Shown: in pieces, positions 4,503-60,439 of the stretch
Numbering within the stretch: position 1 is the stretch's first letter
Layout of the letters: each line of letters begins with the position of its first letter
Virus record (IMG/VR): IMGVR_UViG_3300046501_000552
Span: 1-64,000 of that record
DNA length: 64,000 bases
Reading direction: 5' to 3' (one strand)
Origin: an uncultured virus (IMG/VR IMGVR_UViG_3300046501_000552)
Taxonomy: Duplodnaviria; Heunggongvirae; Uroviricota; Caudoviricetes
The notes under the pieces: generated by a model
Seen by the model: only the letters and a program-made list of their open reading frames with translations
Database searches by the model: none
What the model was told of the DNA's origin: nothing
Program-made: the position numbers and the translations under genes

Positions 4503-4532
4503 CGGCATAAGCCCCAGGGTTTCCCCTGGGGC
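4503..4532 (-). terminator. hairpin + TTATGCCG element
   Basis: GCCCCAGGG-tttc-CCCTGGGGC preceded by CGGCATAA, downstream of the protease gene. Confidence 0.7.
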
Positions 4533-4547
4533 TCGCTTACGGTGGTG

Positions 4548-5348
4548 TCACCACTGCAAGAAGGCGGGCTTCTTCGCCCCTTCGGTTTCGGTTGTGTCCC
4601 AGCCCATCGCTTGAAACAGTTCCTGTCCCGTCAAGATGGCTGATTCCTGAGCTACCCCGTACATCGAGTTACGCTTGATGCCGCGCTCGATCTGACCCCG
4701 GCTAAACAGGTGGTCGAAGTCCTGCGTGTTGCGATCGCTCGCGCCCACGTGGGCTCCTTCCAGTGCCGGTGCCTTGAACTTCTCCGCCGCTGCCAGTCCG
4801 GGTTCCAACACTTGGTCCCAGGTGACGATGGTGCGCAAAATGCGCTTGCAGGTGCCACGCTCCATGAAGTCGTCAGTGAACGCCCGGATCGAGAAGCAGA
4901 CGTTCTCGTTCGGATTGTCCAGCGATCGACGCAGCTGCTCGCCATGGGGACCCGACGGATAGACGCGCGAGATGATAGCGATCACGGGGTTCCCGTGGTC
5001 ATCTTTCACCCGATCGAAATCCAGGTAGATCTCCTTGTGGTGGCAGCACACGTTGTCTTCATAGATCGACATCACGCGCTGTGCAAACTGCTCTTCACTC
5101 ATGCCAGGCAGTGGCTTGGGATGACCCAGCTCACCACGCAGCACGCCGCGCTTCACGCGTCGCATGAAGGTGCTCGAGCCCTCGAACAGATCACGGGCTT
5201 GGTCGTACACGTAGTACTGACCAATTGAGTTGAAGACGTTCAGCGCCCCGACCACTAGCTCGTAGTAGCCGTTCTCGTCTTTCTTCAACACCCCGCTCTT
5301 GTTCGATGCCGCGAGTGCCGTACACGCGAATCGAATTTGATTGCCCAT
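4548..5348 (-). CDS. prohead/head maturation protease (phiKZ gp175 / T4 gp21-like)
   Basis: GELGHP (catalytic His), CFSIR (catalytic Ser), TWDQVLEPG; start ATG 5348 (MGNQIRF). Confidence 0.88.
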   Translation of the reverse strand: MGNQIRFACTALAASNKSGVLKKDENGYYELVVGALNVFNSIGQYYVYDQARDLFEGSSTFMRRVKRGVLRGELGHPKPLPGMSEEQFAQRVMSIYEDNVCCHHKEIYLDFDRVKDDHGNPVIAIISRVYPSGPHGEQLRRSLDNPNENVCFSIRAFTDDFMERGTCKRILRTIVTWDQVLEPGLAAAEKFKAPALEGAHVGASDRNTQDFDHLFSRGQIERGIKRNSMYGVAQESAILTGQELFQAMGWDTTETEGAKKPAFLQW

Positions 5349-5368
5349 TGTGTTCTCGACTTGTTGAC

Positions 5369-7804: not shown

Positions 7805-7854
7805 AAAAAAGGCCGAGTAGGTCACCCTCACCGCAATGAGGGCAACCACACTCA
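7805..7854 (-). terminator. intrinsic terminator after vRNAP beta gene
   Basis: Imperfect long hairpin (CCCTCA-ccgcaa-TGAGGG core) followed on the minus strand by TTTTTT. Confidence 0.65.
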
Positions 7855-7855
7855 G

Positions 7856-10800
7856 TTAGCTCTTGTAGGCAGCGACTGCTCGTTGGGCAATCACGTCCAG
7901 CAGGGTAGTGGTGGTGCCAATGATCGCAGGGCTATTCACAATACGATCGTAGACACTCTTGTAACCGAATACGCAGTCGATGACTGTGCCCGACTCCGTC
8001 TTCAGTTCGTTCTCCATCACCTTACCGAACACCGTCTTCATCTGGTTGGCAAACACACCCTTGTCACCGACCCCTGCGCTCACATCAGCCGTGATGTAGA
8101 TCTGAATCGCCACTGTATCCAACGCCAGTGGTTCTCCATCGACCCGGAAGCCCTCATCGGTACTTCCCGTGAAGCCCTTTCGTCCAGCGGACTTATGGCG
8201 CTTCGCCATCTCACGATCCGACATGTTCGTCAGTTGCCGCAGCGACTCCGACATGTCCTCTTTGTCCCCGTGATAGAAGACTTCAATACGCTCAACCACA
8301 CCCTTGGTCTTGGAGAGCGGCACCTGAGCAGACAGATTGCGCAAGGTGTCCAGCGACTCCTCATCAAAGAGGTGATTGTTCGCGGTGACCGCGTCCTCGA
8401 TTATGCATAAGATGTCCTCGCTGCCCACGCGCTGGCCGGTTTTCACCAACCGATGCACGGCTTGATCGAAGTTCACCACGATCTTACGCACCTTGGTGGT
8501 CTTCGTGGTCAAGAGACCCGACACCCGTTTGCTAATCGCCGAGGAGTCTTCCAGGGTATCGGTCGACTCCAACAGAACCGTCTTGACAATCGTCCCAGCC
8601 TTCCACACCACCTGATTCGGATTCAACGTATCGCGCTCGAAGAATCCGGTGTTGTGACACAAGAGGTCGCCTGCCTTAAACACTTGACCTTCAACGACGT
8701 CAGCGACTACTTCATGCGCGACGGTAAGACCCGCTGCGTTGCCATAACGACGACCCAGTTCGATCCCTTTGCGCGTACCATCGGCGTACTCGATCACCAT
8801 GCCGGTGTCCGAGACGCTGATCACCTTGCCGTCCTTCTTGGCCGTATAGGCGTAGAGGTCTGAAGTCCGATGCGCGAGCACCTGTTCATAGCCGGTACGC
8901 ACCGAGGCTTGCGTGTAACCCGCGCAGGCAATCCCGTGAGAATGCTGAATACCCACGAAGTTCACCCGCTTCGCATCATCGCGATCCGAGCCCGGTGACA
9001 AGAGCGCCGCAGTTGAGAGCAGGGCCGTCGCACCCGTCACTCCAATCTCGTACGGATTAGAGGTCCCGCGCAGTGAGTTAAACTGCGGGTCCGCCGACAG
9101 GTAGGTGTTGATCGCCACGTCGGAGGAGTCCTTGGTCGACTCGGAGATGGTCCCCATGTCGTTGCGATGGTACTGACGCGTGCGCTTGGTCATCGAGCGC
9201 GACCCCCGTCCACCGGTCCCCGAGAACGTGACGGCCTCGACGTCTTTCAGGTTTTCCACCGGATTGATGTCCGATACCTGGTTCTTGGCCGGGTCGGTCT
9301 GAATCGCCGTCCAGACAGCGTACGGGTTCAGGTCGATCGGATGCTTGTTCTTGCCCGGGCGGCCGTTATGAATCCGAATCGCCCGAATCAGTTCCGCATA
9401 CACCGCCCCTGCCATACGCTCGTAGCCCTTGATCCGCATGTACTTCGGATCGAGCTCGTCGGGGTGGGTATCCGAGAGTAGCATCTCCACCGAGCGCACC
9501 AACAGCCCCTGGAACGTCAGCGGCTCTTTCATGCCCTGCAAGATTTCCCGTGTGATCGGATCGATAAACATCTGGTACATCAAATCGATCTCACGCAGGT
9601 AACGCTCCGAGCGACCATTGCCTTCGAGGATGTTCAGATAGACGCCGCGCCGATCAAACTCGAACACACTGTAGTTACGGATCTGTCGATGGAACTCGTT
9701 AAAGCCGCCGAGGATCATCGCCGCGAAGGTGTTATCGCGCGGGAAGATCAGCGTCTCATCCGAGAACGCAATCGCGTACTCGTTATCTTGCAGGTTCAGA
9801 CGCTGGCCCGCGTTCACACGGCGTGCCGTCACCTTCAGCGCCCGCATGAGCTTTTCCAAGCCCATTTGGTAGCCCAATACCACCGCCAGCGGAATCGTCC
9901 GACCCAGTACCTTGAGCTCCGCAAACTCCACCGGGGCTTTCTTGGCTTCCAGATCCAGCAACTGCTCAAAGCCCGGCAGAGCGTCATCGGTATTCTGAAT
10001 CACACCATCGATCAAACCGACCAGGGCCATCGAGTTATCCGGATACATGACGATATACTCACCGCCTTCCGCCTGCCCGCAGATGATCTTACCTTCGCTT
10101 TCGAGCGCCGCCAAGACGTCCGGTCCGTAGAGCTTCTCACGCTTTGAGTGATCAAAGAGGAAGTTGAGCTTCTTCGAGAAATGGGCCGAATCCACCGTGA
10201 AACCCCGAAAGCCCATCGCCATGGATGAATACAGACGCGGCGCTTCAAAGAGGTTGTCGAACACGTCGCCCGGATGCAGATTCACCACCGTGGTGTTCTC
10301 GTTATCCAGTCCCATCGCCATGATCGCATTACGCATCCACTGCGAACGATCGTTCACGCGTTTTTCGCTCCGTGACACAAACACCTTACCGTAGTAAGAC
10401 GTCAGCGCCACCCGATCCGGTGCAATCTTACGAATCGGCATGTCACCCTTTTGCTTACGGATGCGATAGCGCGTACCGTTGGCCATGTAAGTGCCATCGT
10501 CTTGCAACAGCGGCAGCTTAAAGTGCAAGGTAGAGGCCGTGCCCTGCACCGGCACAATCCGTACGTGGTACATCACGTACGAGCCCATCACATCCTCCAC
10601 TTCTTCACGCTCGTAGGACGTCACGCAGATCCCGGCGTTTTGCAACGCCAGTACCATGCCTGCCACATCCTTTTCCAGCAGCGTCTCGATGTAGCGCTGG
10701 TCGAACTCCAGCAGCGACGATTTTAACATCGTCTTATCCAGCACGGTCGGAATGTCCTTGATGGCGGGCGATTCCACGATCTTGGTTTCGTGTGGCTGGA

Positions 10801-12394
10801 CTTGCGAGAAGTCGTGCAGGTTACCTTCGCCCTTGGGCGCAGGCAGGTTCTTGGGCGACTGTGCCAGTTGCGTGAAACGACGATACTCCGCCGCACTGAC
10901 CATCCCGTCATCCGCCAGGCGATTGAGCAAAGCAATCACGCCGTCTTCCGGTTGCGGCACGTCATTCAGCTCGACCACTTCCGCCGGATGCGGAATCTCA
11001 CCCGCGCTCACCGCGACGGCTTGACGACTGAGCTTATCGAGCGTTTGCAGATCCTTTTCAATCTGCGCGTCTTCAGTCGGATCAAAGACAAAGTCCTCGG
11101 CCTTCTCGGTCGGGGTGAATTCATCGGTCGGGGTGCTCTTGACCGAGTTGGTCTTCACTGCCGTCGGCTTCAGAATTGCTTCGCCCGTAATCGGATCGAC
11201 CTTGGGGAGACTGCCCGTTTGCTTGAAGGTCGGCAAGAGACTCTCGTCTTCCTCGTCGTCCTTGTTTGCATCGAACTGCTCATCGGGATCGTAATGCTGC
11301 GCTTCCGGTACGCCATCGGCGCTCGCGTCTTGCGCATCCGCCGCCTGGATCGACTCTTCGTCTTGGGCGGCGTCTTCAGCTTCCGGACCCACATCCGTTC
11401 GCACTTGGAAGAGCGACATCGACATGCGCAGCAAGCGACGCTGCATCTGCACCGGCGACAGTCCCTTTTGATTCGCCTGCGGATTCGCCGCGAGCTCTTC
11501 CTCGGTCGCCACGCGCCAGCGATTGATGACACCCAGATTCACCACGAACCACCGACCCGATTCCGTGAAGATCAGATTCACGCGATCCAGATGCTCATCA
11601 TTGACGTTGGCAATCAGCGAGCTATGGCGGGCGTCGCCTGCCCACTTCCACAGCTCGAGCAGCATCAGGGCTTCGGGCGTATGGAACACCTTGAGCGTAC
11701 GCTGGTTCATTGCTTCCATCGCTACGCTATCCACATAGTGGGGCGAGGCTTGCACCAGATCCAGATACTCCTGATCGACGGACTCTAGCGCCAGCTTGAT
11801 ACCTTCGGCGGCATGGCTCAGCACGTCGCCTTCGATAAGCGACTCCGAGGCAATGCGCAAATCCGTCAAGCCCGGCAAAATCTTCGGCAGCCGGATTTCG
11901 ATGAACTGATGCCGGGTCGAGTCTTTCGCCAGATCGCCAATGCGCTTCCAGACCGTGGCTGCAATATTGTACCAGCGGTTGTACTCCGCAAACATCGAGC
12001 GCTGATAACGGTAGAGCCCCGCCAGAAAGCCGTAGTTCATCACGAACGGGACATTCACATCGCGCAGCGCAGCGTTCAGGTTGATCTGACGACGAAACCG
12101 GCGATGATGCTGGTGGTACTTGCGAATCTCGGTTTCCACCGGCACTGCGACCCGCCGTGGCATGCCCTTGTCCGAGAGCAACTCGATCTGATGCATGATC
12201 GGGATGGGACGCGCCACATGCCGAAAGAGAAACTCATCCGAACGCGGGCCGATATCCACCGCGCTTTCACTCACGTAGTGAAAGATCGACTCACGCGGCA
12301 GCTCCAGCAAATCGAGCTTGGGCATGGGTGGGTTCGTCAACTGCGAAGCCGTGCGCACACCAAAGCGTCGAAAGAAGTTGTTGTAGAAAATCAT
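7856..12394 (-). CDS. rpoB: virion RNA polymerase beta-like subunit, large piece (phiKZ gp178-like)
   Basis: 1512 aa; beta-subunit motifs LPLLQDDGTYMANG, SDRDDAKRV, VRTGYE, EDSSAIS, GVGDKGVFANQMKTV. Confidence 0.9.
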   Translation of the reverse strand: MIFYNNFFRRFGVRTASQLTNPPMPKLDLLELPRESIFHYVSESAVDIGPRSDEFLFRHVARPIPIMHQIELLSDKGMPRRVAVPVETEIRKYHQHHRRFRRQINLNAALRDVNVPFVMNYGFLAGLYRYQRSMFAEYNRWYNIAATVWKRIGDLAKDSTRHQFIEIRLPKILPGLTDLRIASESLIEGDVLSHAAEGIKLALESVDQEYLDLVQASPHYVDSVAMEAMNQRTLKVFHTPEALMLLELWKWAGDARHSSLIANVNDEHLDRVNLIFTESGRWFVVNLGVINRWRVATEEELAANPQANQKGLSPVQMQRRLLRMSMSLFQVRTDVGPEAEDAAQDEESIQAADAQDASADGVPEAQHYDPDEQFDANKDDEEDESLLPTFKQTGSLPKVDPITGEAILKPTAVKTNSVKSTPTDEFTPTEKAEDFVFDPTEDAQIEKDLQTLDKLSRQAVAVSAGEIPHPAEVVELNDVPQPEDGVIALLNRLADDGMVSAAEYRRFTQLAQSPKNLPAPKGEGNLHDFSQVQPHETKIVESPAIKDIPTVLDKTMLKSSLLEFDQRYIETLLEKDVAGMVLALQNAGICVTSYEREEVEDVMGSYVMYHVRIVPVQGTASTLHFKLPLLQDDGTYMANGTRYRIRKQKGDMPIRKIAPDRVALTSYYGKVFVSRSEKRVNDRSQWMRNAIMAMGLDNENTTVVNLHPGDVFDNLFEAPRLYSSMAMGFRGFTVDSAHFSKKLNFLFDHSKREKLYGPDVLAALESEGKIICGQAEGGEYIVMYPDNSMALVGLIDGVIQNTDDALPGFEQLLDLEAKKAPVEFAELKVLGRTIPLAVVLGYQMGLEKLMRALKVTARRVNAGQRLNLQDNEYAIAFSDETLIFPRDNTFAAMILGGFNEFHRQIRNYSVFEFDRRGVYLNILEGNGRSERYLREIDLMYQMFIDPITREILQGMKEPLTFQGLLVRSVEMLLSDTHPDELDPKYMRIKGYERMAGAVYAELIRAIRIHNGRPGKNKHPIDLNPYAVWTAIQTDPAKNQVSDINPVENLKDVEAVTFSGTGGRGSRSMTKRTRQYHRNDMGTISESTKDSSDVAINTYLSADPQFNSLRGTSNPYEIGVTGATALLSTAALLSPGSDRDDAKRVNFVGIQHSHGIACAGYTQASVRTGYEQVLAHRTSDLYAYTAKKDGKVISVSDTGMVIEYADGTRKGIELGRRYGNAAGLTVAHEVVADVVEGQVFKAGDLLCHNTGFFERDTLNPNQVVWKAGTIVKTVLLESTDTLEDSSAISKRVSGLLTTKTTKVRKIVVNFDQAVHRLVKTGQRVGSEDILCIIEDAVTANNHLFDEESLDTLRNLSAQVPLSKTKGVVERIEVFYHGDKEDMSESLRQLTNMSDREMAKRHKSAGRKGFTGSTDEGFRVDGEPLALDTVAIQIYITADVSAGVGDKGVFANQMKTVFGKVMENELKTESGTVIDCVFGYKSVYDRIVNSPAIIGTTTTLLDVIAQRAVAAYKS

Positions 12395-14019
12395 GAATCG
12401 TAACCTGTCAGATTGTGGAACACCAAGGACACGGTCGAGACTTCGATACTGGACATGAAGGAGCCGTCGGTACCGACGTAGGCGCGCTTCTTACTCAGGT
12501 GTGCCTTGACTTCCGCGATGGATTCGTCCGAGTACGTGACGTTACCCGAAGCGGTATCGCCGTCAAAGTCCGCGCCCAGTTTGCCAAGCTTGGCTGAGTG
12601 CGGCACCAGCGAGTTGATAAACGCACCGCCCGTAATCGGGAACTGATACGCCACCGGCGCATCCAGTCGTAGTTGCCACTGCTCATCGAGCTCCTTGCGA
12701 ACCTCAGCCTTAATCGTCGTCTTCACATAGGCGAGCGACGGATAGATCGAGCCCACCCCGGTCACCGGGTAACGCGTCACAAAGAGCGGCAAGCCATTGA
12801 TGGCCTGGAAGGTCGACAGATAGAGCAGCTCACAAAAGGTGAGCGGCGTCACATCTTTGCGACTGCGCTCAATGGGCACATCACCAATGTCCTGGAAGAT
12901 CTTGTAGGTCCCGTCCGGGCCCTTGTAAATGAGACCGAGGTAATAGCCTTCAATCTCCAGCGGCTTATGGCGCAGGTCCTCGTCTCCAAACGACGTGATC
13001 ACCTTCTCGATGCCTTCGTTGGTCATCCAGCGATCGTAGCTTTGCGTCTTGAGTGTGACTTCGACTGGGCGCAGCGTCTTCTTGTCAATCAGCTTTACCG
13101 GCCGACCCACTTCAAAGAACACCTTGGAGAGAAAGCCGTTGCGAATGTTGTACATCGCAATCGGACGCGCCGCTTTCAACATCTGGTACAGGCCGATCAC
13201 GGTGTTATTAAAGCCCACCGCGTCGGGTGCCCCCAGATAGGGACTGGACGTATCCATCGCCGTAATCACGTTTCGCGTGCCGTCCTGAATCCGCCGACTG
13301 GCCCACTTGCCCATCAGCAGCTTCTTCTTGCCCTGCACCATGTTTTCCAGCATGTCGTACAACTGGTTAAAGGTGAGCTGCAAGTTGTAGCGTGCGGTGT
13401 TGATCACTTCCGGTGCAGTCTTGACCGACGCTTCGGAGATGGTGTTGGAGATCGCCAGCAGCTTGCGGTAAAAGGTGTTGATTTCATCCATCTGCACCCG
13501 ACCGCCATCGAGCTCCACGTCACGCATCCCCGCAGGCATCACAATCACTTTGCTGGTGAGCGCCACGCTCTGGAACTTCTTCAAGAGCGACACATTCATT
13601 TCCCGTGTCACACTCTTGGTGTCACCGAATTCGATGAGCTTCCAGTATTCCAGAAAGAATGCGTAGCCGGTACGGCCGGTAATTGAATTGCTGCGCTCAA
13701 AGTCTTTGGTTTCCGGATTCCACACCGCGTACTCAGTGCCTGCCATAATCGCAGCATAGAGGCGCTTGAGCTGGGCGAGTGCCCGATAGATCACCGGATG
13801 GAACACCGGGGCCTTGATGTCAACAAACGAAAAGCGCTGACTCCGGCGCTCATCCCCGACTTTGCCGAAGATGCTCACCGAGAAGAGTCCGCCTTCGTCG
13901 AAGTTGTGGGTCGCGCCATCGAAGATGTCTTGCTTCGTAACAGGTTTCACACCCACGAGCTTTTTCTCCGTGAGTTCAAGGATACTCACGTTAAATGGGA
14001 CTTCGCTTTTCTGGGGCAT
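12391..14019 (-). CDS. rpoC: virion RNA polymerase beta'-like catalytic subunit (phiKZ gp180-like)
   Basis: GADFDGD catalytic Mg-binding motif, GLFSVSIFG, TRYP; ATGA overlap with the beta gene. Confidence 0.92.
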   Translation of the reverse strand: MPQKSEVPFNVSILELTEKKLVGVKPVTKQDIFDGATHNFDEGGLFSVSIFGKVGDERRSQRFSFVDIKAPVFHPVIYRALAQLKRLYAAIMAGTEYAVWNPETKDFERSNSITGRTGYAFFLEYWKLIEFGDTKSVTREMNVSLLKKFQSVALTSKVIVMPAGMRDVELDGGRVQMDEINTFYRKLLAISNTISEASVKTAPEVINTARYNLQLTFNQLYDMLENMVQGKKKLLMGKWASRRIQDGTRNVITAMDTSSPYLGAPDAVGFNNTVIGLYQMLKAARPIAMYNIRNGFLSKVFFEVGRPVKLIDKKTLRPVEVTLKTQSYDRWMTNEGIEKVITSFGDEDLRHKPLEIEGYYLGLIYKGPDGTYKIFQDIGDVPIERSRKDVTPLTFCELLYLSTFQAINGLPLFVTRYPVTGVGSIYPSLAYVKTTIKAEVRKELDEQWQLRLDAPVAYQFPITGGAFINSLVPHSAKLGKLGADFDGDTASGNVTYSDESIAEVKAHLSKKRAYVGTDGSFMSSIEVSTVSLVFHNLTGYDS

Positions 14020-20443: not shown

Positions 20444-20456
20444 CGTAGGAGCAGCC

Positions 20457-22568: not shown

Positions 22569-22572
22569 TCGA

Positions 22573-22610
22573 CGGCATAGAGGCCAGGGGAAACCCTGGC
22601 CCTTATGACG
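22573..22610. terminator. bidirectional hairpin flanked by CGGCATA / TATGACG
   Basis: GGCCAGGG-gaaa-CCCTGGCC between convergent genes. Confidence 0.75.
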
Positions 22611-24171: not shown

Positions 24172-24212
24172 AAAAAAAGAAGAAGGGGCATAGGGGAGGC
24201 CGAAGCCTCCCC
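24172..24212 (-). terminator. hairpin + TATGCC + T-tract
   Basis: GGGGAGGC-cgaa-GCCTCCCC; the minus strand continues TATGCCCCTTCTTCTTTTTTT. Confidence 0.75.
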
Positions 24213-26645: not shown

Positions 26646-26675
26646 CGGAAACCCGCTCCAAACCGTGACTGTGCT

Positions 26676-26733
26676 CCGCACCCACCTCGACCGCTCCAGA
26701 AGTGGGGTCGAGGGGTGCGGGGCGTTTATGCCG
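26676..26733. terminator. hairpin + TTTATGCCG between convergent genes
   Basis: CGCACCC-a-CCTCGACC...GGTCGAGG-GGTGCG followed by GGGCGTTTATGCCG. Confidence 0.6.
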
Positions 26734-33218: not shown

Positions 33219-33275
33219 CGGCATAAACCCACTAACCCGCCCGTACCACTGGGGAGGTTAGTGGGAATATGACCG
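33219..33275. terminator. bidirectional hairpin flanked by CGGCATA / TATGACCG
   Basis: CCCACTAACC...GGTTAGTGGG between convergent genes. Confidence 0.7.
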
Positions 33276-39678: not shown

Positions 39679-39713
39679 CGGCATAGAGGGAGGCTTCGGC
39701 CTCCCCTTATGTC
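39679..39713. terminator. bidirectional hairpin flanked by CGGCATA / TTATGTC
   Basis: GGGAGGC-ttcg-GCCTCCC between convergent genes. Confidence 0.75.
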
Positions 39714-39722
39714 CCTACTTTT

Positions 39723-44313: not shown

Positions 44314-44329
44314 GCCCGTGTTGTACCCT

Positions 44330-44395
44330 CGGTCATAAACCCCCGTGCCTATCCTCTTCACAGGGGACGGGCCGGGGGTTTATGCCGTTATGACG
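44330..44395. terminator. bidirectional hairpin flanked by CGGTCATA / TATGCCG
   Basis: CATAAACCCCCG...CGGGGGTTTATG, then a second TTATGACG. Confidence 0.7.
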
Positions 44396-45665: not shown

Positions 45666-45776
45666 GCCGTGGCTCCGGGGAAAAATCTTTTGAATACTAT
45701 GATTGTAGCTTTGTTGTAGTCTTGGAAGATAGACTAAAACCTATAGAATATCGCCTTCACCCGCTGGGAGAAAAGA

Positions 45777-47606: not shown

Positions 47607-47696
47607 TAAATAGCGCGATGCAACACACCTCTGGCTGGGGTCATCCTGGCCAGAGGTGATTGTGTCGTTCGGACAAGATTAGGAGTTAGTAAACAA

Positions 47697-49190: not shown

Positions 49191-49193
49191 ACC

Positions 49194-49703: not shown

Positions 49704-49712
49704 GGACTCACG

Positions 49713-50162: not shown

Positions 50163-50176
50163 AAGCCTTCAGTTAA

Positions 50177-50242
50177 CGTCATAGAGGCCTTTCCCGCCCC
50201 TCGCAACCATGAGGGTAGGGAAAGGCCTTATGCCGCTATGAC
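50177..50242. terminator. bidirectional hairpin flanked by CGTCATA / TATGCCG
   Basis: AGGCCTTTCCC..CCCTC...GAGGG..GGGAAAGGCCT, then TATGCCG and CTATGAC. Confidence 0.75.
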
Positions 50243-50278
50243 AACGCCTCTGAGAGGCTCTCAGTGCGTTTACTGCAT

Positions 50279-52162: not shown

Positions 52163-52190
52163 TGTATTACTCCAATTGTTACACGCTGGT

Positions 52191-52682: not shown

Positions 52683-52992
52683 TGCTTGCCCCTTGCGGAG
52701 ATGCCGCAAAGACGGCGTTGTTCTGTGTTTTCCAGTCCTGCAAGGAACTGATGTGACGATTGGCCGTGGCAACGTTTGCCGTTTGCGCATCGTACTTCGA
52801 TTCCCACAGGTCGCTGCGCTGCTTCCAGGAGAGCGTGCCATAGCTCGTTTGATCAGGCGGGGCTTCCACCGTGGCCTTCACAAGCAGTGCGTCGGGTGGC
52901 GCGACGTACAGGTTCTTCAGTTCCGGTACACCGGTTTGTGCACACCCCGCCAGGCTTGCTGTCACCAGCACAGCCAGGATTGTCTTTTTCAT
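52660..52992 (-). CDS. outer-membrane spanin (Rz1-like lipoprotein)
   Basis: MKKTILAVLVTASLAG-C lipobox; YVAPPDALL Pro-rich motif. Confidence 0.7.
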   Translation of the reverse strand: MKKTILAVLVTASLAGCAQTGVPELKNLYVAPPDALLVKATVEAPPDQTSYGTLSWKQRSDLWESKYDAQTANVATANRHISSLQDWKTQNNAVFAASPQGASNVSGTRP

Positions 52993-53008
52993 GATGGTCT
53001 CTCGCTTC

Positions 53009-53554
53009 TTACTGAGCTTGCGGCAGTGCTGTGCACTTGGCATCAGCGTTGTCAATGGCCGCACAATACTTCATCCAACTCCCCGTGAGCTGAACGGCAC
53101 TTACTTCGGCGTCACGCCCCACGGGCACAACGTCACCGGCTTGATCACTGGTAATGGTCTTGACCGGCACAACTGGTTTAGGCTTAACTGTGTTCGAGGG
53201 CGTGCTTGTCGCCGACGTCGCCGGAGCGACAACACTTGTCGTCGGATTGGCGTACTTCGAATCGATCTGCTTGGTCTGGTCTGCGACCCAGGCGTCGATC
53301 TTGCTACCCGTGGCAGCCGCTGCTTGATCGGCCTTCACCGACGAAGCCACCACCGCATCGGTCACTGCAGCGGTACTCGCCTGCTGAACGATCGTGGTTG
53401 CCTGGCCTTTGATGACCACAGCGTCTGAACCGATCTTCTGGTTATCACTGAGCACGGTGTGATACTCGTGCACCGCGAACCAGCCGAGCAGTCCGATAAC
53501 CGCGATAATTGCTGCCCCGATCGCGAGTTTGATTTGCCATGTGAGGGTGCTCAT
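53009..53554 (-). CDS. inner-membrane spanin (Rz-like)
   Basis: N-terminal TM LAIGAAIIAVIGLLGWFAV, Ala-rich periplasmic helix, two C-terminal Cys; upstream of the lipoprotein. Confidence 0.65.
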   Translation of the reverse strand: MSTLTWQIKLAIGAAIIAVIGLLGWFAVHEYHTVLSDNQKIGSDAVVIKGQATTIVQQASTAAVTDAVVASSVKADQAAAATGSKIDAWVADQTKQIDSKYANPTTSVVAPATSATSTPSNTVKPKPVVPVKTITSDQAGDVVPVGRDAEVSAVQLTGSWMKYCAAIDNADAKCTALPQAQ

Positions 53555-54129
53555 CTGTGTTGCTCCCGTAGGATTTTAAGTCGACAGTACGCCACGGCGA
53601 GCGCGTCGATCGAGTGCTCATCCAGCATCTCAAGCGCAACCGGTCCGTTATAGTTTAAATCCGGTAGACGCATCAGTGCTGCCTTGACTTCATCCTTCTT
53701 GGCGTGTGAGGTTGCCCCCACGGCCTTCTTGACGCTGGGCGGGTCGATCATAAAGAGCGACAGCCAGCAGTCGTATCGCCATAAGGCACTCCGGATCGCA
53801 TCGACAGTCTCTGTCAATGCGCCGTATGCCTGAGGTCGAAATTGACTGTAAAACGGAGACTCTGATGCAACCAGGTTAGGACGGTAATACTCGAAGATTT
53901 CCACCAGGTTATCTTCGTGGGCTGCAATACGCTCAGCCCGTGCACCATGGGTGTCGCCAAACCAGGTGTCTTTCGCCAGTTTCGACCCGACGAAAGTAAA
54001 CGCAGTGCTCTCGATGATTTCGAGCTTCACTACGTCTACTCTCAAGGCACCCATTCCAAGTGTCTCGCTCCCAGGGTCGATACCGACGATGCATCCGATG
54101 GGGGATGCACCTTCCGGTATTACTAACAT
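53551..54129 (-). CDS. ruvC: RuvC-like Holliday junction resolvase
   Basis: IVGIDPGS..LG, ESPF, P.SVKKAVG...AKKDEV, DEHSIDALAVA. Confidence 0.9.
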   Translation of the reverse strand: MLVIPEGASPIGCIVGIDPGSETLGMGALRVDVVKLEIIESTAFTFVGSKLAKDTWFGDTHGARAERIAAHEDNLVEIFEYYRPNLVASESPFYSQFRPQAYGALTETVDAIRSALWRYDCWLSLFMIDPPSVKKAVGATSHAKKDEVKAALMRLPDLNYNGPVALEMLDEHSIDALAVAYCRLKILREQHR

Positions 54130-54138
54130 GCCTTAGCC

Positions 54139-55023
54139 TCAGCTGGTGGTAGTCTGCGAACCCGATGTCGTGCCCGTCCCGGAGGTGAGCTTGTACAGGG
54201 GTTCCACCGCGCCACAGTCGACCACGTTCTCGACGCCGTCCTGGCTAAAGTTCAGCGCATAGAAGGTGTTGATAAACGTGTCCACTTGCGCGGCGATGAC
54301 TTCCTTGAAGTTGAACGTGGGTTGCCCCGACCCACCCACTGCAATGACCTTGTCCACGCCGGAGACCAGCGCAATTTCGGAAACGATCGCAGCGTTCGGA
54401 TCACCATAAATGATGTTAGCGACGTTCAAAATTTCCGTGACGTCATCGGCGGTGAGCGTAATCGGTACCGGCGCCGAGGCCATTACGTAGTCGCCAGTGG
54501 CCACATTCACGCCGGTGGGCGAGAGGGCTTGCGGGTTCGGATTCAGATTCGACGTATCGGGCTGGAACGGCGTGGTGGTGACCGAGCCATCCGCATTAAC
54601 CGTCTTGTACTGCATCGAAACCGCTACACCCGTAAAGTCGATGCGCTTCAGGTAGTAGGCGATGTAGTTGACGCCGTTGTGCGTTTCCGCCACGCGCAGA
54701 CCGTACGCGGCTTGTTGGGCCGACGTCAAATCGTTGGTGGGTTCACGCAGCACGAACGGCAGGTGGTTGTAGAGCGCTGCGTCGGTCGTCAAGTGCTGGA
54801 TCGGCTCAGGGATGTACAACCCATTGGTGATGTTCAGCTTGTGACCACCATTACCGATCGCAAAGTAACGGCAGGTCGGCAGCACCCCGGAGTTGGGCAG
54901 AACGCCCGGCTGCACTTGAAACTTTTCATTCAGCGTGCTGTTGGTAGCCAGTGCAAACGGCAGCCCCAAGAGCTGGCACGACTGCAGATAGCTGCCGTAC
55001 ACGGTGCGTACGATATTGTCCAT
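54139..55023 (-). CDS. putative virion structural (baseplate) protein
   Basis: 294 aa; YFAIGNGGH, LPFVLR, YYLKRID motifs; structural operon. Confidence 0.65.
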   Translation of the reverse strand: MDNIVRTVYGSYLQSCQLLGLPFALATNSTLNEKFQVQPGVLPNSGVLPTCRYFAIGNGGHKLNITNGLYIPEPIQHLTTDAALYNHLPFVLREPTNDLTSAQQAAYGLRVAETHNGVNYIAYYLKRIDFTGVAVSMQYKTVNADGSVTTTPFQPDTSNLNPNPQALSPTGVNVATGDYVMASAPVPITLTADDVTEILNVANIIYGDPNAAIVSEIALVSGVDKVIAVGGSGQPTFNFKEVIAAQVDTFINTFYALNFSQDGVENVVDCGAVEPLYKLTSGTGTTSGSQTTTS

Positions 55024-55089
55024 TCTCTTACCTGAAAAAGGGTGTCACAGATTACTTAATCACACTATTTGCGATCAATTGGCCCGTGC

Positions 55090-57450
55090 TTAAAAGCCAT
55101 CGAGGTCGAGCTGTGGAATGACGTTAATCGTTCCATCGGGCTGGTGGTAAATCAGACCGGTGAGATAGCCGGTACGAATTACGCTCGACAGCATCGTCGT
55201 TTGGTTATCCGGCACCGTGGGTTGGAAGTCATTGCCCCAGATGTCCGTGATCTTTTGCTGCTCGCCTGCAGGCAGATTCAGCCAGTTACACAAGCCCGGT
55301 ACCACAATCGCCTGGCTGGGGTTAGGCGCCGCGCACTCGCAGTCGTGCATCCTAAAGCGCACCTTACCTGCATTGAGGAAGGTGTGCTGCACGTTGCTGC
55401 TGACTTCGTGCCACGGATTCTTGATCGCCAGTTTCACGTGGTTGGCCATGGACACATGTCGATCATGGATCGGCGTGTACTTGGTCACCTGGTTCTCCAG
55501 CGAATTCTTGAAGTGCGGGTGTTGATCGAGCGCCCGCACACCAAGATCCGTTGCATCCATCTCATTGGCCTGATGACCGCGCGCATCCCCGACCCGAATC
55601 GCGGCCCACTCACCCGGCACGATGGTCGAATCGTTAATGGTCGACATGAATTGAATCGAGTAGCTCGAGAGCTGCTCCATCATGCCAATCATCGCCTTCT
55701 GGATGTTCGCTACGCTCGGCGTCGTGATGAGATCCTGACCCGTGGCGTGAGCGACGATCTCCGCGTAGAGTGAACCCCACTCGGTTTGCGTGAATGCCGC
55801 CACGTCCAGGTTGCGCGCTGCAAACCAAGCCGAGTAGTTATCCCCCGGATCAGCGACGTAGCACAAATTGTCGCTCCACAAGAGTGAGGTGGCGTTCTTC
55901 ACATAGCCACGCACTTCCATGTGTTCCTGGTACGACACCAGGCCGTCTTGCTGATTGGCTGCGGTATAGATCTGCTGACACAGGCTATAGAACGCTTCGG
56001 TCGAGAGGAAGGTCGATGACGGCTTGATCAACGGCATCAAGTCATGGATCTCCTGCAACGTCGCTCGATCCACCTTGCTCATGTCACACACTGCTGCCAT
56101 CGCGTCGACACTGGGCGTCGGCAAGCGTGGCACGCGCTGCGCGAACATCGGTGGGATCACATCCAGCGTAATCCCAATCGAAGCGTTAAGCGCATACCAG
56201 GCCAGACAGAACGCATCCTTCGCAAACAAGGGTACCGTTTCACCGGTGGCTGGATTGGTGAACTGCACGGCCGAGTTGTAATACCCGAGACTTGAGAGCC
56301 ACAACCAGTTATTGACCAGGATCTCAGAGAGCGGATACTTGACGCTACCCGTGTAGTCGATCATCGACGACTCAAGCGCCTTGGTCGGCAACTCATTGGA
56401 GAGCGAATTTTGCATCGCCTCCAGAATCTTCGGCTCGTAGTCGCCCTCGTACTTCTCATTGTCGCGCGCAACGGGCCGTTCCTTGATCAGCATCTCGTCC
56501 AAGGTGATCTCGTTGATGCTATCCAGGTTGTAGCCCAGATTGACCGGATCGCGCGTAAACGTAATGGTCGGATAGAGATCCGTGGGCATCTGAGACACGT
56601 CATGGCGCATGGTGTACTTTGCCAGGGGCAAATTACGCTCGGTCATGATATGGTCCACGAGCCACTCGAAGATCTCCGACTGCCCGGCGTTACGCTCCAG
56701 GTAGTTGATGTTCCGATATAGCTCGAGCGACTGCTTGGTCGTCAGCTGATCGAGGTACAGATCCAGCAGGCCATGACTCAGGAGGTACTGACGCACGTGA
56801 AAGCTATGCGCCTCATTAGTCTTGCAAGCTTCCAGGCGCAGCGACAAAATCACCTGCGGCAGCAACGCGTACATGATCCCCAGGGTGAAGGGGGTATACA
56901 TGTCGTCTGAGACCGTGTAGGCGAGATTCACCCAGCGCGTTTTGAATCCATCGATCCAGCGCTGCAGCTTGTCGATGAGGCTGTACTCATTGAATTCGAC
57001 CAGGCTGCTCGGGTAGGCCAAGATCTTCCCATCGGCGGCGCTGATGGCATCGTCGATGTCAACCGGATTCAAGATCCCGTTGATGAGAGTGACCTGGGTC
57101 GGATACTGGGCCACCAGCGCCAGATAGTCACGTTGGCCAAACTGGTAGGCCTTGGCAGTGGCGCGGTGTAGCGCCAGATTCTCGACCGTGAATTCGATCG
57201 TTTCTAGCGTATCCATCGAGACGACATACATCATCGTGTCGGCGAAGTGATACTGGCCAGACAAATTCATATAGTAGCGCCACGTCGTGGGGTCCAGGTC
57301 ATTGACCTGATCTGCCCCATACACGCCGCTGATATACGTGTTGATTGCATCAGCCGTGGCTGACGACTTGACGACAATGTATCGGGCCAACGCGAGTACA
57401 CTGTCGAGATAGACCTGATACTGATTCGAGGTACTAGTTGTCGCGGCCAT
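55090..57450 (-). CDS. putative virion structural (baseplate) protein (phiKZ gp128-like position)
   Basis: 786 aa; WRYYMNLSGQYH; divergent from the portal-like gene. Confidence 0.7.
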   Translation of the reverse strand: MAATTSTSNQYQVYLDSVLALARYIVVKSSATADAINTYISGVYGADQVNDLDPTTWRYYMNLSGQYHFADTMMYVVSMDTLETIEFTVENLALHRATAKAYQFGQRDYLALVAQYPTQVTLINGILNPVDIDDAISAADGKILAYPSSLVEFNEYSLIDKLQRWIDGFKTRWVNLAYTVSDDMYTPFTLGIMYALLPQVILSLRLEACKTNEAHSFHVRQYLLSHGLLDLYLDQLTTKQSLELYRNINYLERNAGQSEIFEWLVDHIMTERNLPLAKYTMRHDVSQMPTDLYPTITFTRDPVNLGYNLDSINEITLDEMLIKERPVARDNEKYEGDYEPKILEAMQNSLSNELPTKALESSMIDYTGSVKYPLSEILVNNWLWLSSLGYYNSAVQFTNPATGETVPLFAKDAFCLAWYALNASIGITLDVIPPMFAQRVPRLPTPSVDAMAAVCDMSKVDRATLQEIHDLMPLIKPSSTFLSTEAFYSLCQQIYTAANQQDGLVSYQEHMEVRGYVKNATSLLWSDNLCYVADPGDNYSAWFAARNLDVAAFTQTEWGSLYAEIVAHATGQDLITTPSVANIQKAMIGMMEQLSSYSIQFMSTINDSTIVPGEWAAIRVGDARGHQANEMDATDLGVRALDQHPHFKNSLENQVTKYTPIHDRHVSMANHVKLAIKNPWHEVSSNVQHTFLNAGKVRFRMHDCECAAPNPSQAIVVPGLCNWLNLPAGEQQKITDIWGNDFQPTVPDNQTTMLSSVIRTGYLTGLIYHQPDGTINVIPQLDLDGF

Positions 57451-57518
57451 AACGGCGCCCCTTATTTCAATAACATGCAGTCCTTGTTTTTCAAGGGCTA
57501 TCTTTCGTTGAGGTTCAA

Positions 57519-60383
57519 ATGTCCAAAGCGTTGAAGGAAGCCATTGCGCTTGCTGGCAGTGGCAAACGCTACTCGGCGATGTCCCTGGTTCGTCAAGACC
57601 CAGGCATGGCCGCCACCATCAGCAAGATGGTCCATGGCAAAACGCCTCCCCGGTACGACAGCTCTGGAAACATGACGACGGACAATCCGTCGATCCAGGC
57701 ATTGAAGAACGTCTCGGATAATACGGTTCAAAACATCTCGGACGCACAGACTGTGCTCCAGACGTTGCCTGAACTCGAACTGGCGATCCAGATCCTCGTG
57801 TCCTCGGTACTTTCACCGAAAGACATGATGACCGTGGAGCTGACATATAAAGCTCCGGAGAACCTGGTCCCGCCGGAAGTGAACACGGCAATGACCAATC
57901 GTGTTCGCGTCCATTTTGAACAGAACTATAAAATAAAGCAGGTCCTTCCTCGGATGCTGCGTGACGTTCTGGCTGAGACGGGCTCGTATCCGGTCGCGGT
58001 GATTCCCGAGAACTCGATTGACGATGTGATCAACTCCAATCGTAAAGTGTCGATGGAGTCGCTCGTCGAGCACTTTCACAACGATGGTCGGATTAAGCCG
58101 CTGGGTCTGCTCGGTCCGGTCACCAAGACCAAGCCCACGCAAGTGCGTCAGGGTGCCGCACTCTCGATGGAGTCGCTCGAGACGTTCAAGTTCGACACGA
58201 CCTATCGCACCGATGTGACGCTTGAGAAAGCGTTCGATAACGTCGCGCAGGAAACCTATACGACGGTGACCGATAACCCGTCGTTGCTCAAGGTGCCAAT
58301 GCTGCACCAGAAGATCCGCGAAAGCCGGGTGATGGATCTGTTGGGTGCCCGTAACGGTCTGTCGCGCGGGATGAAGCTGGCGAGCGAAGCGTACGGCGCG
58401 CAGAACCCGACGCATCAGGTGCAACAGCATAAGCCCAATGACCGGGAACTGGCGGGGATGATCTATCGGGATCGCAACTACCAGTACAAACCGATCACTA
58501 CGCTGAAAACCCAAGAGCAGCTTAATCGCCGCACGGTGGGTGCGCCGCTCATCATGCACTTGCCCTCGGAAGCGGTGATTCCGGTGTTTGTGCCGGGTAA
58601 CGTTGAGCAGCACGTGGGCTTCTTCATTCTGATCGATGAAGACGGTCACCCGATCCAGCGTATTGCCGACATCGATTACTACCAGCAACTGAACGCGCGG
58701 ATGAATTCCGGTGGTTCGTTCCCTTCGGCCATGCTGCAAAAGGTCAAGGCGAACATGCAGGGGTTCGATAACACCAATAACGCCCACCTCGATTACTCGG
58801 CACGCGTGTACGGTGAAATGATCGAGCAGGATCTGCTCGCTCGCCTGCGTAATGGCGTGTACGGCAACGGCGTGGCACTGGCTAAGCGCGAAGAAGTGTA
58901 CCGCATCATGTTTGCACGAGCGCTCGCTAAGCAACACACGCAGCTGCTCTTCATGCCGATCGAGTTCATGACGTACTTCGCGCTGCGCTATAACGGCGAC
59001 GGCATGGGTAAGTCGATGCTCGATGACTTGAAGATCATCAATTCGCTGCGCTCGATGCTCTTGTTTGCCAACGTGATGGCGGCCGTCAAGAACTCGATGG
59101 GTCGCACCGAGGTCAAGATCAAGATGGATGAGCACGATCCTGATCCGCAGAAGACCTTTGAGCGCGTGGTGCATGAAATCTTGCGCAGCCGTCAGCAAGC
59201 ATTCCCGGTGGGCACCAACTCGCCGATGGACATCGTTGACTGGGTGCAGCGTGCGGGCTTTGAGTTTGTACCGGAAGGTCATCCTGGACTCCCGGACATG
59301 ACGGTGGAGTTTGGGGAAAAGAACACCAGCTACGTGAAGCCTGATACGGAGCTCGATGATGATCTGCGTAAGCGCTCGATCATGGGCCTGGGTCTTACGC
59401 CGCAGTCCGTTGATGCGGCCTTCGAAGCGGAGTTCGCCACCTCGGTCCTGACTAACAACATCCTCTTGTCCAAGCGGGTGATGAACATTCAAGAAGTGAT
59501 TGAGCCGCAACTGGCCGATCACGTGCGTAAGGTCATGATGAACGATGAAGAGCTCGTTCGTGATCTGCGGGCGATTCTGGAGGCGAGCGCCGATAAGCTG
59601 CTTGAGCGCTTGAAGAAGCAAGACGAGGCCCATAAGGACGATCCGACGTACCGCTCGCATCTGGGCGGTCAGCCGAAGGAATTGGTGATTCAGCAGCTCC
59701 TGTACGACTTTGTGATGGGCCTGGAAGTCAGCCTGCCGAAGCCGAACAGCGTGACGCTGGAGAACCAGCTGGCGGCAATGGATACGTACTCGAAGTCGCT
59801 CGATCAGGGGCTCGACTACTACATCTCGACGAACTTCCTCACGTCCGACACCGCGGGCGATCTCGGTAACTACGCGGGTTCGCTCAAGGAGATGGCCAAG
59901 GCCTACTTCATGCGTAAGTGGATGGGTGAGAATGGCGTGCTGCCGGAGCTCTCCGATCTGAACACGCTCGACGATGACGGCAAGCCGAAGCTCAACCTGT
60001 GGGACGCGTTCCAGGATCACACCAGCAACATGATCCTGAGCATGGACCACTTCATGAACGGCATGAAGCCGATCAAGGATGCAGCGGGGCTAAACAACGC
60101 CAAGCGTCAAGCAACCGACCAGAACAGCGGTGGGATGGGAGGCGGGATGGGTGACATGGGTGGCGGCAGCATGGGTGGCGGCATGTCCATGGGTGGTGAC
60201 ACCGGTTTGGGTGGGTTGGGTGGCGGTGATGACTTTGGGGGCGGTGGTTTCAACATGGGTGGTGCAGGGGGCGGTGACGATCCCTTTAACCTCGGTGGCG
60301 GAGCCAGCACGACCGATGAGTCGCCTTTGAATCCGGAAGATGACAAGCCGGAAGATCAGGGTGCTGCAGAACCGCAAGTCTAA
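57519..60383 (+). CDS. portal protein (phiKZ gp129-like)
   Basis: 954 aa, GAGG Shine-Dalgarno; LPELELAIQILVSSVLSPKDM, FFILIDEDGHP, YFAL.YN..G.GKSML recalled as phiKZ-like portal motifs; internal S-M-E sites; Gly/Met-rich tail. Confidence 0.7.
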   Translation: MSKALKEAIALAGSGKRYSAMSLVRQDPGMAATISKMVHGKTPPRYDSSGNMTTDNPSIQALKNVSDNTVQNISDAQTVLQTLPELELAIQILVSSVLSPKDMMTVELTYKAPENLVPPEVNTAMTNRVRVHFEQNYKIKQVLPRMLRDVLAETGSYPVAVIPENSIDDVINSNRKVSMESLVEHFHNDGRIKPLGLLGPVTKTKPTQVRQGAALSMESLETFKFDTTYRTDVTLEKAFDNVAQETYTTVTDNPSLLKVPMLHQKIRESRVMDLLGARNGLSRGMKLASEAYGAQNPTHQVQQHKPNDRELAGMIYRDRNYQYKPITTLKTQEQLNRRTVGAPLIMHLPSEAVIPVFVPGNVEQHVGFFILIDEDGHPIQRIADIDYYQQLNARMNSGGSFPSAMLQKVKANMQGFDNTNNAHLDYSARVYGEMIEQDLLARLRNGVYGNGVALAKREEVYRIMFARALAKQHTQLLFMPIEFMTYFALRYNGDGMGKSMLDDLKIINSLRSMLLFANVMAAVKNSMGRTEVKIKMDEHDPDPQKTFERVVHEILRSRQQAFPVGTNSPMDIVDWVQRAGFEFVPEGHPGLPDMTVEFGEKNTSYVKPDTELDDDLRKRSIMGLGLTPQSVDAAFEAEFATSVLTNNILLSKRVMNIQEVIEPQLADHVRKVMMNDEELVRDLRAILEASADKLLERLKKQDEAHKDDPTYRSHLGGQPKELVIQQLLYDFVMGLEVSLPKPNSVTLENQLAAMDTYSKSLDQGLDYYISTNFLTSDTAGDLGNYAGSLKEMAKAYFMRKWMGENGVLPELSDLNTLDDDGKPKLNLWDAFQDHTSNMILSMDHFMNGMKPIKDAAGLNNAKRQATDQNSGGMGGGMGDMGGGSMGGGMSMGGDTGLGGLGGGDDFGGGGFNMGGAGGGDDPFNLGGGASTTDESPLNPEDDKPEDQGAAEPQV

Positions 60384-60399
60384 GACCAAAAAAAAAGAG

Positions 60400-60439
60400 C
60401 GTCATAAGCCCCCAGGCTTTCGCCTGGGGGTCTATGCCG
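60400..60439. terminator. bidirectional hairpin flanked by CGTCATA / TATGCCG
   Basis: CCCCCAGGC-tttc-GCCTGGGGG with an A9 run to the left; convergent genes. Confidence 0.8.

What the first reader, a model, noticed from the sequence alone, without database searches (positions are those of the whole stretch)
4503..60439. Family of gene-end hairpins followed by a conserved TATG(C/A)CG motif: candidate phage-RNAP-specific termination or processing code
Seen: at least nine GC hairpins with unrelated stems and loops share a flanking motif: 4503, 22573/22604, 24187, 26727, 33219/33268, 39679/39708, 44330/44381, 50177/50229 and 60400/60433. Read along the terminated transcript, the stem is followed within a few nt by (T)TATGCCG or TATGAC(C)G, often with no immediate U-tract. 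At most convergent junctions both arms carry the motif and are asymmetric: one TATGCCG, the other TATGAC(C)G or TATGTC. At co-directional sites (4503, 24187) only the downstream arm has it. At 44381 and 50229 it is doubled (TATGCCG-n-TATGAC). Established: phiKZ late promoters have a TATG core at the start site. Inference: a sequence-specific terminator for the phage RNAPs, an RNase or protein recognition site, or late promoters firing antisense into convergent genes.
Basis: partly seen in the sequence, partly recalled or inferred. Interest (0 to 1): 0.8.

Follow-up and report, generated by a model that had tools for sequence, protein, structure and literature searches.

The report
phiKZ-type hairpin-TATG transcription terminators
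These gene-end hairpins are this giant bacterial virus's copies of a stop signal already mapped in its relatives phiKZ and 201phi2-1, so the element is known; what stands out here is that the usual run of U's is almost gone and the two ends of two-way stop signals are almost never spelled alike.

Summary
In detail: 8 of 9 TATGCCG in the window directly follow a GC hairpin, and 13 of 14 convergent gene ends carry hairpin+TATG. The window is 99.97-100% identical to a complete 310,654-bp chimallin- and nvRNAP-encoding jumbo phage (G001), where TATGCCG is the top hairpin-following 7-mer (43 of 62; background 1%). The element is the terminator motif published for phiKZ and 201phi2-1. On their tables, RNA 3' ends map at 36 of 86 and 41 of 83 hairpin-TATG sites but at 5 of 2524 and 1 of 1902 hairpin-less TATG; start sites are not enriched, so the antisense-promoter idea fails. 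'Phage-RNAP-specific' is unproven: U-richer 201phi2-1 copies also worked in uninfected host cells. Two features I found in no paper searched: the U-tract is nearly lost here (3.2 U in 8 nt), and the arms of two-sided elements avoid identity (motif positions 5-7 identical in 2 of 191 pairs over 13 phages; 24.8 expected). Best reading: a hairpin plus a sequence-defined pause/release site for the phage polymerases, with symmetry broken on purpose. This scan noted the same kind of element before on other DNA (54 findings, at least 38 genomes).

The parts
4503..4533 (-). One-sided element: hairpin 4510-4533, then TATGCCG (4509-4503), after the head-maturation-protease gene
   Evidence: z -4.4
22573..22610 (.). 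Two-sided element at convergent junction: hairpin 22582-22601; plus arm TATGACG (22604), minus arm TATGCCG (22579)
24186..24212 (-). One-sided element: hairpin 24193-24212, then TATGCCC (24192) with no spacer, U-run further on
26673..26733 (+). Long hairpin 26673-26723 at a convergent junction; only the plus arm has TATGCCG (26727), which overlaps the stop codon of the minus gene; FLC9 has TGTGTCG here
33219..33275 (.). Two-sided element: hairpin 33228-33265; plus arm TATGACC (33268), minus arm TATGCCG (33225)
39679..39714 (.). Two-sided element: hairpin 39688-39705; plus arm TATGTCC (39708), minus arm TATGCCG (39685)
44330..44395 (.). Two-sided element: hairpin 44340-44378; plus arm TATGCCG (44381) with second TATGACG (44389, over the opposite gene's stop codon), minus arm TATGACC (44337)
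   Evidence: z -7.2
50177..50243 (.). Two-sided element: hairpin 50185-50228; plus arm TATGCCG (50229) with second TATGACA (50237), minus arm TATGACG (50183)
   Evidence: z -7.1
60400..60439 (.). Two-sided element: hairpin 60409-60430; plus arm TATGCCG (60433), minus arm TATGACG (60406)
7856..14019 (-). Context: two phiKZ-type RNA polymerase subunit genes (7856-12394, 12391-14019), upstream neighbours of the tail-fibre/endolysin gene; one of the enzymes inferred to read the element
   Evidence: phrog_3148 E=0; phrog_2986 E=2e-201; assignment to the virion enzyme is recalled from phiKZ gene order

Best explanation
The elements are the transcription terminators of a nucleus-forming (Chimalliviridae) jumbo phage, of the kind published for phiKZ and 201phi2-1. 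Shown here: a GC hairpin of free sequence sits just after stop codons and is followed at 0-2 nt by TATG-(C/A/T)-(C/T)-G. Shown in relatives (published data, re-analysed): RNA 3' ends fall inside this tail, always on a pyrimidine, most often just before the conserved G (8 nt from the stem) or two to three nt earlier. Inferred: the phage's own multisubunit polymerases pause on the tail, whose Y-then-G end matches the downstream part of the bacterial elemental pause signal, and the hairpin then releases the RNA as in intrinsic termination, but with the tail sequence replacing the U-tract. At convergent genes one hairpin serves both strands. Inferred: the two tails are kept different (here mostly C against A at position 5) so that the inverted repeat does not run on past the shared CAUA/UAUG pairs; the A form is a tolerated second-best spelling rather than a second code.
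For: Same motif published at 61 mapped phiKZ ends and 59 201phi2-1 ends. 3' ends at 36 of 86 and 41 of 83 hairpin-TATG sites versus 5 of 2524 and 1 of 1902 hairpin-less TATG; last base T or C in 36 of 36 and 39 of 39; modes at motif +5 and +2. 201phi2-1 efficiency in infection: median 0.977 for 39 hairpin-TATG ends, above 20 other hairpin ends (p=6e-5); higher when the seventh base is G (30 vs 9 sites, p=0.016); the 16 without TT before TATG still reach 0.907 or more. In G001, 71 of 102 sites follow a same-strand stop and 4 lie in sense coding sequence; 31 of 35 hairpin-bearing convergent ends carry TATG. TATG dominates hairpin tails in 13 of 20 other phiKZ-like phages of 37-58% GC; the GC-matched control RSL1 has 3 of 42 and uses U-runs. 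G001 encodes chimallin and an nvRNAP subunit; phiKZ transcription is described as relying only on phage polymerases. Pause signal G-10, Y-1, G+1; at motif +5 G001 has Y in 96 of 102 and next G in 68 of 102. Asymmetry: position 5 identical in 44 of 191 pairs (82 expected), positions 5-7 in 2 of 191 (24.8 expected), 0 of 3000 shuffles as low; spacer position -2 also avoids identity (41 vs 65). In FLC9 A at position 5 is in 18 of 36 two-sided arms but 9 of 63 unpaired sites.
Against: No RNA data for this phage. The published ends are steady-state long-read ends, so trimming or processing could set them; offsets are multimodal. About half of hairpin-TATG sites have no mapped end (50 of 86, 42 of 83; many face away from the flanking gene). 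G at -10 is not enriched in G001 (36 of 102; 52 of 64 in 201phi2-1). With 0-2 nt spacers the +5 end would lie only 6-8 nt from the stem, and the predicted 8-nt hybrid is far more stable than a U-tract (-5.9 vs -0.4 to -1.6 kcal/mol), so release needs something a canonical terminator does not. Efficiency in 201phi2-1 still rises with U count (rho 0.39, p=0.013). No purified-polymerase termination test was found. The reason for the asymmetry is untested, and pairs within and between related phages are not independent.
Confidence: 0.8

Rival explanations
1. Ordinary relaxed intrinsic terminator: any bacterial-type polymerase, host included, stops here; the tail is only a weak-hybrid UAU start plus a generic pause, with no phage-specific reading. 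(Overlaps the best explanation on function, differs on specificity.)
For: Eight 201phi2-1 terminators were functional in uninfected P. chlororaphis; four beat lambda T0 and two equalled it; five of those six have TTTATG tails including TATGCCG and TATGACG. Efficiency tracks U count. phiKZ nvRNAP keeps a bacterial-like lid, flap and RNA exit channel.
Against: A fixed TATG across 37-58% GC is not needed for a weak hybrid; here only 3.2 U in 8 nt and 26 of 102 sites with TT before TATG. The canonical scan flagged none of the eight elements in 21001-41000 and 42001-62000. The two tested terminators not listed as matching T0 (189851, 289834) lack the TTT run yet have 0.986 and 0.9996 efficiency in infection (n=2, Figure 3 not seen). 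A two-reporter ratio can also reflect RNA stabilisation (inference).
Confidence: 0.35
2. RNA processing or protein-binding site: transcripts run on and a nuclease or binding protein that recognises hairpin plus UAUG sets the 3' end.
For: Ends are spread over motif 0, +2, +4, +5, only on pyrimidines; the hybrid is too stable for textbook release; the flanks pair into a CAUA/UAUG helix with a fixed mismatch that a protein could read.
Against: Read-through drops by over 95% at 28 of 39 sites in primary-transcript-enriched data; the main mode is stem +8, as expected for termination; ChmC binds near start codons with no motif found; one-sided elements lack the extra helix yet use the same tail.
Confidence: 0.1
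3. The TATG is a late/middle promoter core (TATG, G = +1) that fires antisense into convergent genes or restarts transcription at co-directional genes.
For: The core is the same four letters. A second TATG just after a terminator is a mapped start site at 2 phiKZ and 2 201phi2-1 loci.
Against: No first hairpin-adjacent TATG is a mapped start: 2 of 86 and 1 of 83 hits are all second copies; hairpin-less TATG give 64 of 2524 and 20 of 1902. The hairpin lies upstream, where it would not be transcribed from such a promoter.
Confidence: 0.04
4. The two spellings (TATGCCG, TATGAC) are separate codes for the virion and non-virion polymerases or for early and late genes.
For: The side carrying C is the same at 5 of 6 orthologous junctions in FLC9 (the sixth has T) although several stems have turned over.
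Against: No fixed strand: C is on plus in 3 and on minus in 3 window junctions; A is concentrated in two-sided elements (18 of 36 vs 9 of 63 in FLC9); other phages break symmetry with C/T or at position 6 instead.
Confidence: 0.08

Closest known systems
Conserved phiKZ terminator motif (Putzeys et al. 2024, PMC10914365): hairpin followed by TTAT-K-Y-Y-G-T, 61 regions, 6 bidirectional regions
   Same: Hairpin, TAT-G-Y-Y-G tail, position after stop codons, shared hairpins at convergent genes.
   Different: Stems here are unrelated and partly long (up to 51 nt); spacer 0-2 nt with few U; A at position 5 is common. The paper files the motif as ARNold-predicted intrinsic terminators and, in the passages read, does not test the tail.
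Motifs A and A/B of phage 201phi2-1 (Poppeliers et al. 2024, PMC11512511)
   Same: Same tail, including exact TATGCCG and TATGACG at mapped ends with efficiency above 0.99; the A/B rows carry the reverse-complement flank upstream, as the two-sided elements here do.
   Different: The paper reads A/B as stem elongation against antitermination; it does not, in the passages read, note that the two arms avoid identity. 32 of 64 of its sites have TT before TATG against 26 of 102 in G001.
Canonical bacterial intrinsic terminator (GC hairpin plus U-rich tract; PMC12288461)
   Same: GC hairpin; main 3' end about 8 nt past the stem in relatives.
   Different: No U-tract: 3.2 U in 8 nt, predicted hybrid -5.9 kcal/mol; missed by the consensus scan.
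phiKZ nvRNAP late promoter core (-3 TATG +1; PMC7618050, PMC5312081)
   Same: Same four letters.
   Different: Marks 3' ends, not starts, when it directly follows a hairpin.

Membership tests
phiKZ/201phi2-1 hairpin-TTATKYYGT terminator | GC-rich stem-loop directly followed by TAT-K-Y-Y-G | tested here: met
   16 of 19 TAT-bearing tails on the contig have G fourth, C sixth in 15 of 16; the A form at position 5 departs from the printed Y but occurs at mapped ends of both reference phages
phiKZ/201phi2-1 hairpin-TTATKYYGT terminator | Lies after stop codons, shared between convergent genes | tested here: met
   13 of 14 convergent ends in the window; 71 of 102 G001 sites after a same-strand stop
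phiKZ/201phi2-1 hairpin-TTATKYYGT terminator | Host genome is a phiKZ-like phage with its own multisubunit polymerases | tested here: met
   RNAP subunit genes in the window; chimallin E=2e-28 and nvRNAP subunit E=2e-93 in G001; window 99.97-100% identical to G001
phiKZ/201phi2-1 hairpin-TTATKYYGT terminator | RNA 3' ends map in the tail | not testable with these tools
   No RNA data for this phage; met in phiKZ and 201phi2-1 on published tables
Canonical intrinsic terminator | GC-rich hairpin | tested here: met
   z -3.2 to -7.2 in 10 of 10 folds
Canonical intrinsic terminator | U-rich tract directly after the stem | tested here: not met
   3.2 U in 8 nt over 16 tails; none of eight elements flagged
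Canonical intrinsic terminator | Release by polymerase alone, no factor | not testable with these tools
   Only a reporter assay in uninfected cells for U-richer 201phi2-1 copies
phiKZ late promoter | Transcripts start at the G of TATG | tested here: not met
   Tested on relatives only: no first hairpin-adjacent TATG is a mapped start; 2 of 86 and 1 of 83 are second copies
Bacterial elemental pause (G-10, Y-1, G+1) | Y at the 3' end, G next, G ten upstream | tested here: inconclusive
   At motif +5 in G001: Y 96 of 102, next G 68 of 102, G-10 only 36 of 102; register taken from relatives

The most novel reading that the evidence does not exclude
Chimalliviridae polymerases use a sequence-specific termination code: they read the TATG tail itself (the same four letters that form their promoter core), so hairpin+TATGCCG stops them without a U-tract while host polymerase largely reads through the U-poor form found here; and two-way terminators are under selection to keep one mismatch at the RNA's last paired position. 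That would be an orthogonal terminator class for a multisubunit polymerase, with this GC-rich phage as the cleanest natural test set.
Probability: 0.35. Interest if true: 0.62.

Novelty: new member of a known kind. Interest (0 to 1): 0.3.

Why it matters
As a feature it is known and needs only correct annotation: U-tract scanners miss these terminators, so operon maps of GC-rich nucleus-forming phages are incomplete without a hairpin+TATG rule. If the tail is read as sequence, it opens how jumbo-phage polymerases terminate, for which my searches found no biochemical study, and offers terminators that could be orthogonal to host polymerase. The U-poor copies and the measured arm asymmetry give sharp, cheap tests.

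Tried and rejected
Antisense or restart promoter: rejected on published start-site tables. Doubled motif as a design rule: 6 of 96 sites in G001, 1-7 per phage in nine others; not pursued. Avoidance of the bare motif in sense coding sequence: 3 seen vs 19.7 expected in G001 and 5 vs 19.6 in FLC9, but all TATG is depleted about twofold, mostly in one frame, and phiKZ, 201phi2-1 and Noxifer show none: inconclusive. A back-up site at 26487 (minus, inside the opposite gene) for the one-sided junction: not kept in FLC9, probably chance. Co-evolution with the polymerase: a 26-marker tree groups 11 TATG-type phages (support 0.999) but Goslar, Deimos-Minion and OBP fall among non-G phages, and the root rests on 2 markers: no conclusion. 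Perfect-palindrome avoidance as sole cause of the asymmetry: it persists in 176 pairs whose inner part is already imperfect, so simple cruciform avoidance is not shown. Rfam: no match in the window. Sequencing runs: no RNA holder listed. ChmC and Rhc papers: no link to terminators in the passages seen. First gene caller and first hairpin-core rule were inaccurate and replaced.
Full report
OBSERVATION. All nine elements are present as described. Eight of the nine exact TATGCCG in the window follow a strong hairpin within 1-5 nt; the one at 445 does not. Ten folds covering all nine elements have z -3.2 to -7.2. I called genes with my own script, which recovered 40 of 40 annotated FLC9 stops in a test stretch, and scored hairpins with a simplified nearest-neighbour model with a length penalty; the cut-offs (-7, -8) were set by eye. 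On the 71,392-bp contig, 28 of 61 gene ends have a hairpin and 16 of these carry TATG, against 1.6 (max 3) for the 11 permutations of TATG; 13 of 14 convergent ends carry it.

THE GENOME. The window encodes phiKZ-type polymerase subunits, head protease, SbcC, RNase H and UvsX homologues; the only DNA-level match among 50,697 phage records was Burkholderia phage FLC9 (76%). It is 99.97-100% identical to G001, a 310,654-bp record with terminal repeats that encodes chimallin and an nvRNAP subunit, so this is a nucleus-forming jumbo phage. In an unbiased scan of G001, TATG is the top 4-mer after hairpins (103 of 819) and TATGCCG the top 7-mer (43 of 62; background 1.0%); FLC9 gives 32 of 49; the GC-matched control RSL1, in which neither protein was found, gives TTTT. 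Of 102 hairpin-TATG sites in G001, 71 follow a same-strand stop, 4 are in sense coding sequence, 3 antisense inside genes, 24 elsewhere.

WHAT IS KNOWN. Putzeys et al. 2024 (PMC10914365; seen: abstract, passages, supplement parts 3, 4, 6, 7) mapped 133 phiKZ ends and report a stem-loop followed by TTAT-K-Y-Y-G-T at 61 of them, predicted as intrinsic terminators, with 6 bidirectional regions. Poppeliers et al. 2024 (PMC11512511; seen: passages, section 15, Tables S1 and S2 whole, no figures) found the same motif at 59 of 132 ends in 201phi2-1 and report eight terminators functional in uninfected P. chlororaphis. The element is therefore known. This scan also noted it before: 54 findings in at least 38 genomes (unchecked AI notes, read after I had formed the same view).

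ENDS, NOT STARTS. Using 129 of 133 phiKZ ends, 147 of 149 phiKZ starts, and all 132 ends and 67 starts of 201phi2-1: a mapped end lies within -10..+12 of 36 of 86 and 41 of 83 hairpin-TATG sites, but of only 5 of 2524 and 1 of 1902 TATG without a hairpin. Many unmatched sites face away from the flanking gene. Starts coincide with 2 of 86 and 1 of 83 sites, each a second TATG of a tandem, against 64 of 2524 and 20 of 1902 hairpin-less TATG. The promoter core is the same four letters (PMC7618050 and PMC5312081, passages), but the hairpin-adjacent copy is an end. The last base is T or C in all 75 cases; the modes are motif +5 (just before the conserved G, 8 nt from the stem) and +2. In 201phi2-1 the 39 hairpin-TATG ends have median efficiency 0.977, above 20 ends with other hairpin tails (p=6e-5) and 26 with TAT(T/A)Y tails (0.95, p=0.005).

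SPREAD. In 140-322 kb from each of 20 other phiKZ-like phages, TATG follows 39-63% of hairpin-bearing gene ends in 13 (FLC9, RP12, LucasX, RSL2, Xoo-sp14, phiKZ, 201phi2-1, Noxifer, SNUABM_54, Deimos-Minion, Goslar, OBP, Moabite; 37-58% GC) and 2-23% in 7 (Yong XC32, D6, Asesino, pTD1, an EL-like phage, BONAISHI, PBS1), which use TAT(T/A/C) or U-rich tails; RSL1 has 3 of 42. The tree does not show that the G form tracks polymerase descent.

WHAT DIFFERS HERE. First, the U-tract is nearly gone: 3.2 U in the 8 nt after the stem, predicted RNA:DNA hybrid -5.9 kcal/mol (16 tails; FLC9 -6.3, phiKZ -3.9, U-tract tails -0.4 to -1.6 in most phages). TT precedes TATG at 26 of 102 G001 sites against 32 of 64 in 201phi2-1. 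The consensus terminator scan flagged none of the eight elements in the two 20-kb stretches scanned. Second, arms of two-sided elements avoid identity. Over 13 phages (contig excluded as homologous to FLC9), position 5 is identical in 44 of 191 pairs (82 expected) and positions 5-7 in 2 of 191 (24.8 expected; 0 of 3000 shuffles as low); position 8 and 10 show no effect, spacer position -2 does (41 vs 65). It is significant separately in FLC9, phiKZ, 201phi2-1, Noxifer, Xoo-sp14 and G001 at position 5, not in RP12, LucasX, RSL2 or the five phages with under ten pairs. Here it is mostly C against A (15 of 21 G001 pairs), a mismatch in both transcripts. Pairs are not independent: only identical sequences were removed.

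MECHANISM. Shown: anatomy, enrichment, placement, and in relatives the ends. From established knowledge: phiKZ transcription relies on phage polymerases, whose exit channel resembles the bacterial one; intrinsic termination uses a hairpin and a weak hybrid, and elemental pausing uses G-10, Y-1, G+1 (PMC12288461, passages). Inferred: the polymerase pauses with the tail in the hybrid, ending on Y before G, and the hairpin, helped at two-sided sites by CAUA pairing with UAUG, releases the RNA. Against a pure sequence code: efficiency still rises with U count (rho 0.39, p=0.013), G-10 is not enriched in G001, and U-richer copies work in uninfected cells. For it: 16 ends without TT before TATG keep 0.907 or more in infection, and the two trap-tested terminators not listed as matching T0 are the two without a TTT run (n=2). 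The asymmetry is most simply a limit on the length of the inverted repeat, at DNA or RNA level; the A form is concentrated in two-sided elements (18 of 36 arms vs 9 of 63 unpaired sites in FLC9) and has no fixed strand.

NOT IN PRINT, AS FAR AS SEARCHED. Searches (listings) and passages of PMC7598289, PMC8244752, PMC13648698 (abstract and term search) and the ChmC preprint 10.1101/2023.09.22.559000 gave no purified-enzyme termination study for phiKZ-like polymerases and no mention of arm asymmetry. The library lacks most subscription papers; the original phiKZ genome and transcription papers were not read, and bioRxiv supplements were closed.

VERDICT. Real, far beyond chance, and a new member of a published terminator class. 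It works like an intrinsic terminator but fails the U-tract criterion, so I do not file it as canonical. Interest 0.3; the open and testable part is whether the tail is a polymerase-specific code.

Noticed in passing
window 47626-47669 (+) and 3245-3270 (-): Gene-end hairpins followed by TGTG instead of TATG (TGTGTCG, TGTGAC); FLC9 also has TGTGTCG where the window has TATGCCG at 26727. Looks like a tolerated variant; TGTG also ends some listed 201phi2-1 promoters.
   Followed up: partly
window 20415-20447 (+), 7813-7855 (-), 62535-62558 (-): Further gene-end hairpins with TATTTCG, U-run and TATAACG tails; the first matches a common phiKZ/201phi2-1 tail form.
   Followed up: partly
contig G000 64310, 66774/66807, 66939, 65162 (outside the window): More hairpin-TATG elements; 66939 faces away from its gene while the sense side has a U-tract; 65162 lies in sense coding sequence and could be an internal stop.
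   Followed up: no
window 30804-33224 (-) and 33842-36124 (-): UvsX-like (806 aa from the longest start) and RNase H (760 aa) frames are longer than their FLC9 counterparts (about 460 and 680 aa); part is an upstream-start artefact overlapping the plus gene, but an insertion was not checked.
   Followed up: no
window 39628-39664 (+): An 18-nt direct repeat at the end of the gene just before the 39679 element.
   Followed up: no
window 1491-2327 (-): Homing-endonuclease-like frame (phrog_314, E=1e-31) that my gene caller skipped; possible intron or free-standing endonuclease.
   Followed up: no
phiKZ 94321, 145655; 201phi2-1 99521, 159078 (records W02, W03): A second TATG 5-8 nt after a terminator tail is a mapped late start site: rare true terminator-promoter junctions.
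   Followed up: partly
201phi2-1 Table S2, motif C rows: These ends lie just before A-runs upstream of hairpins; they may be poly(A)-priming or trimming artefacts rather than terminators (inference).
   Followed up: no
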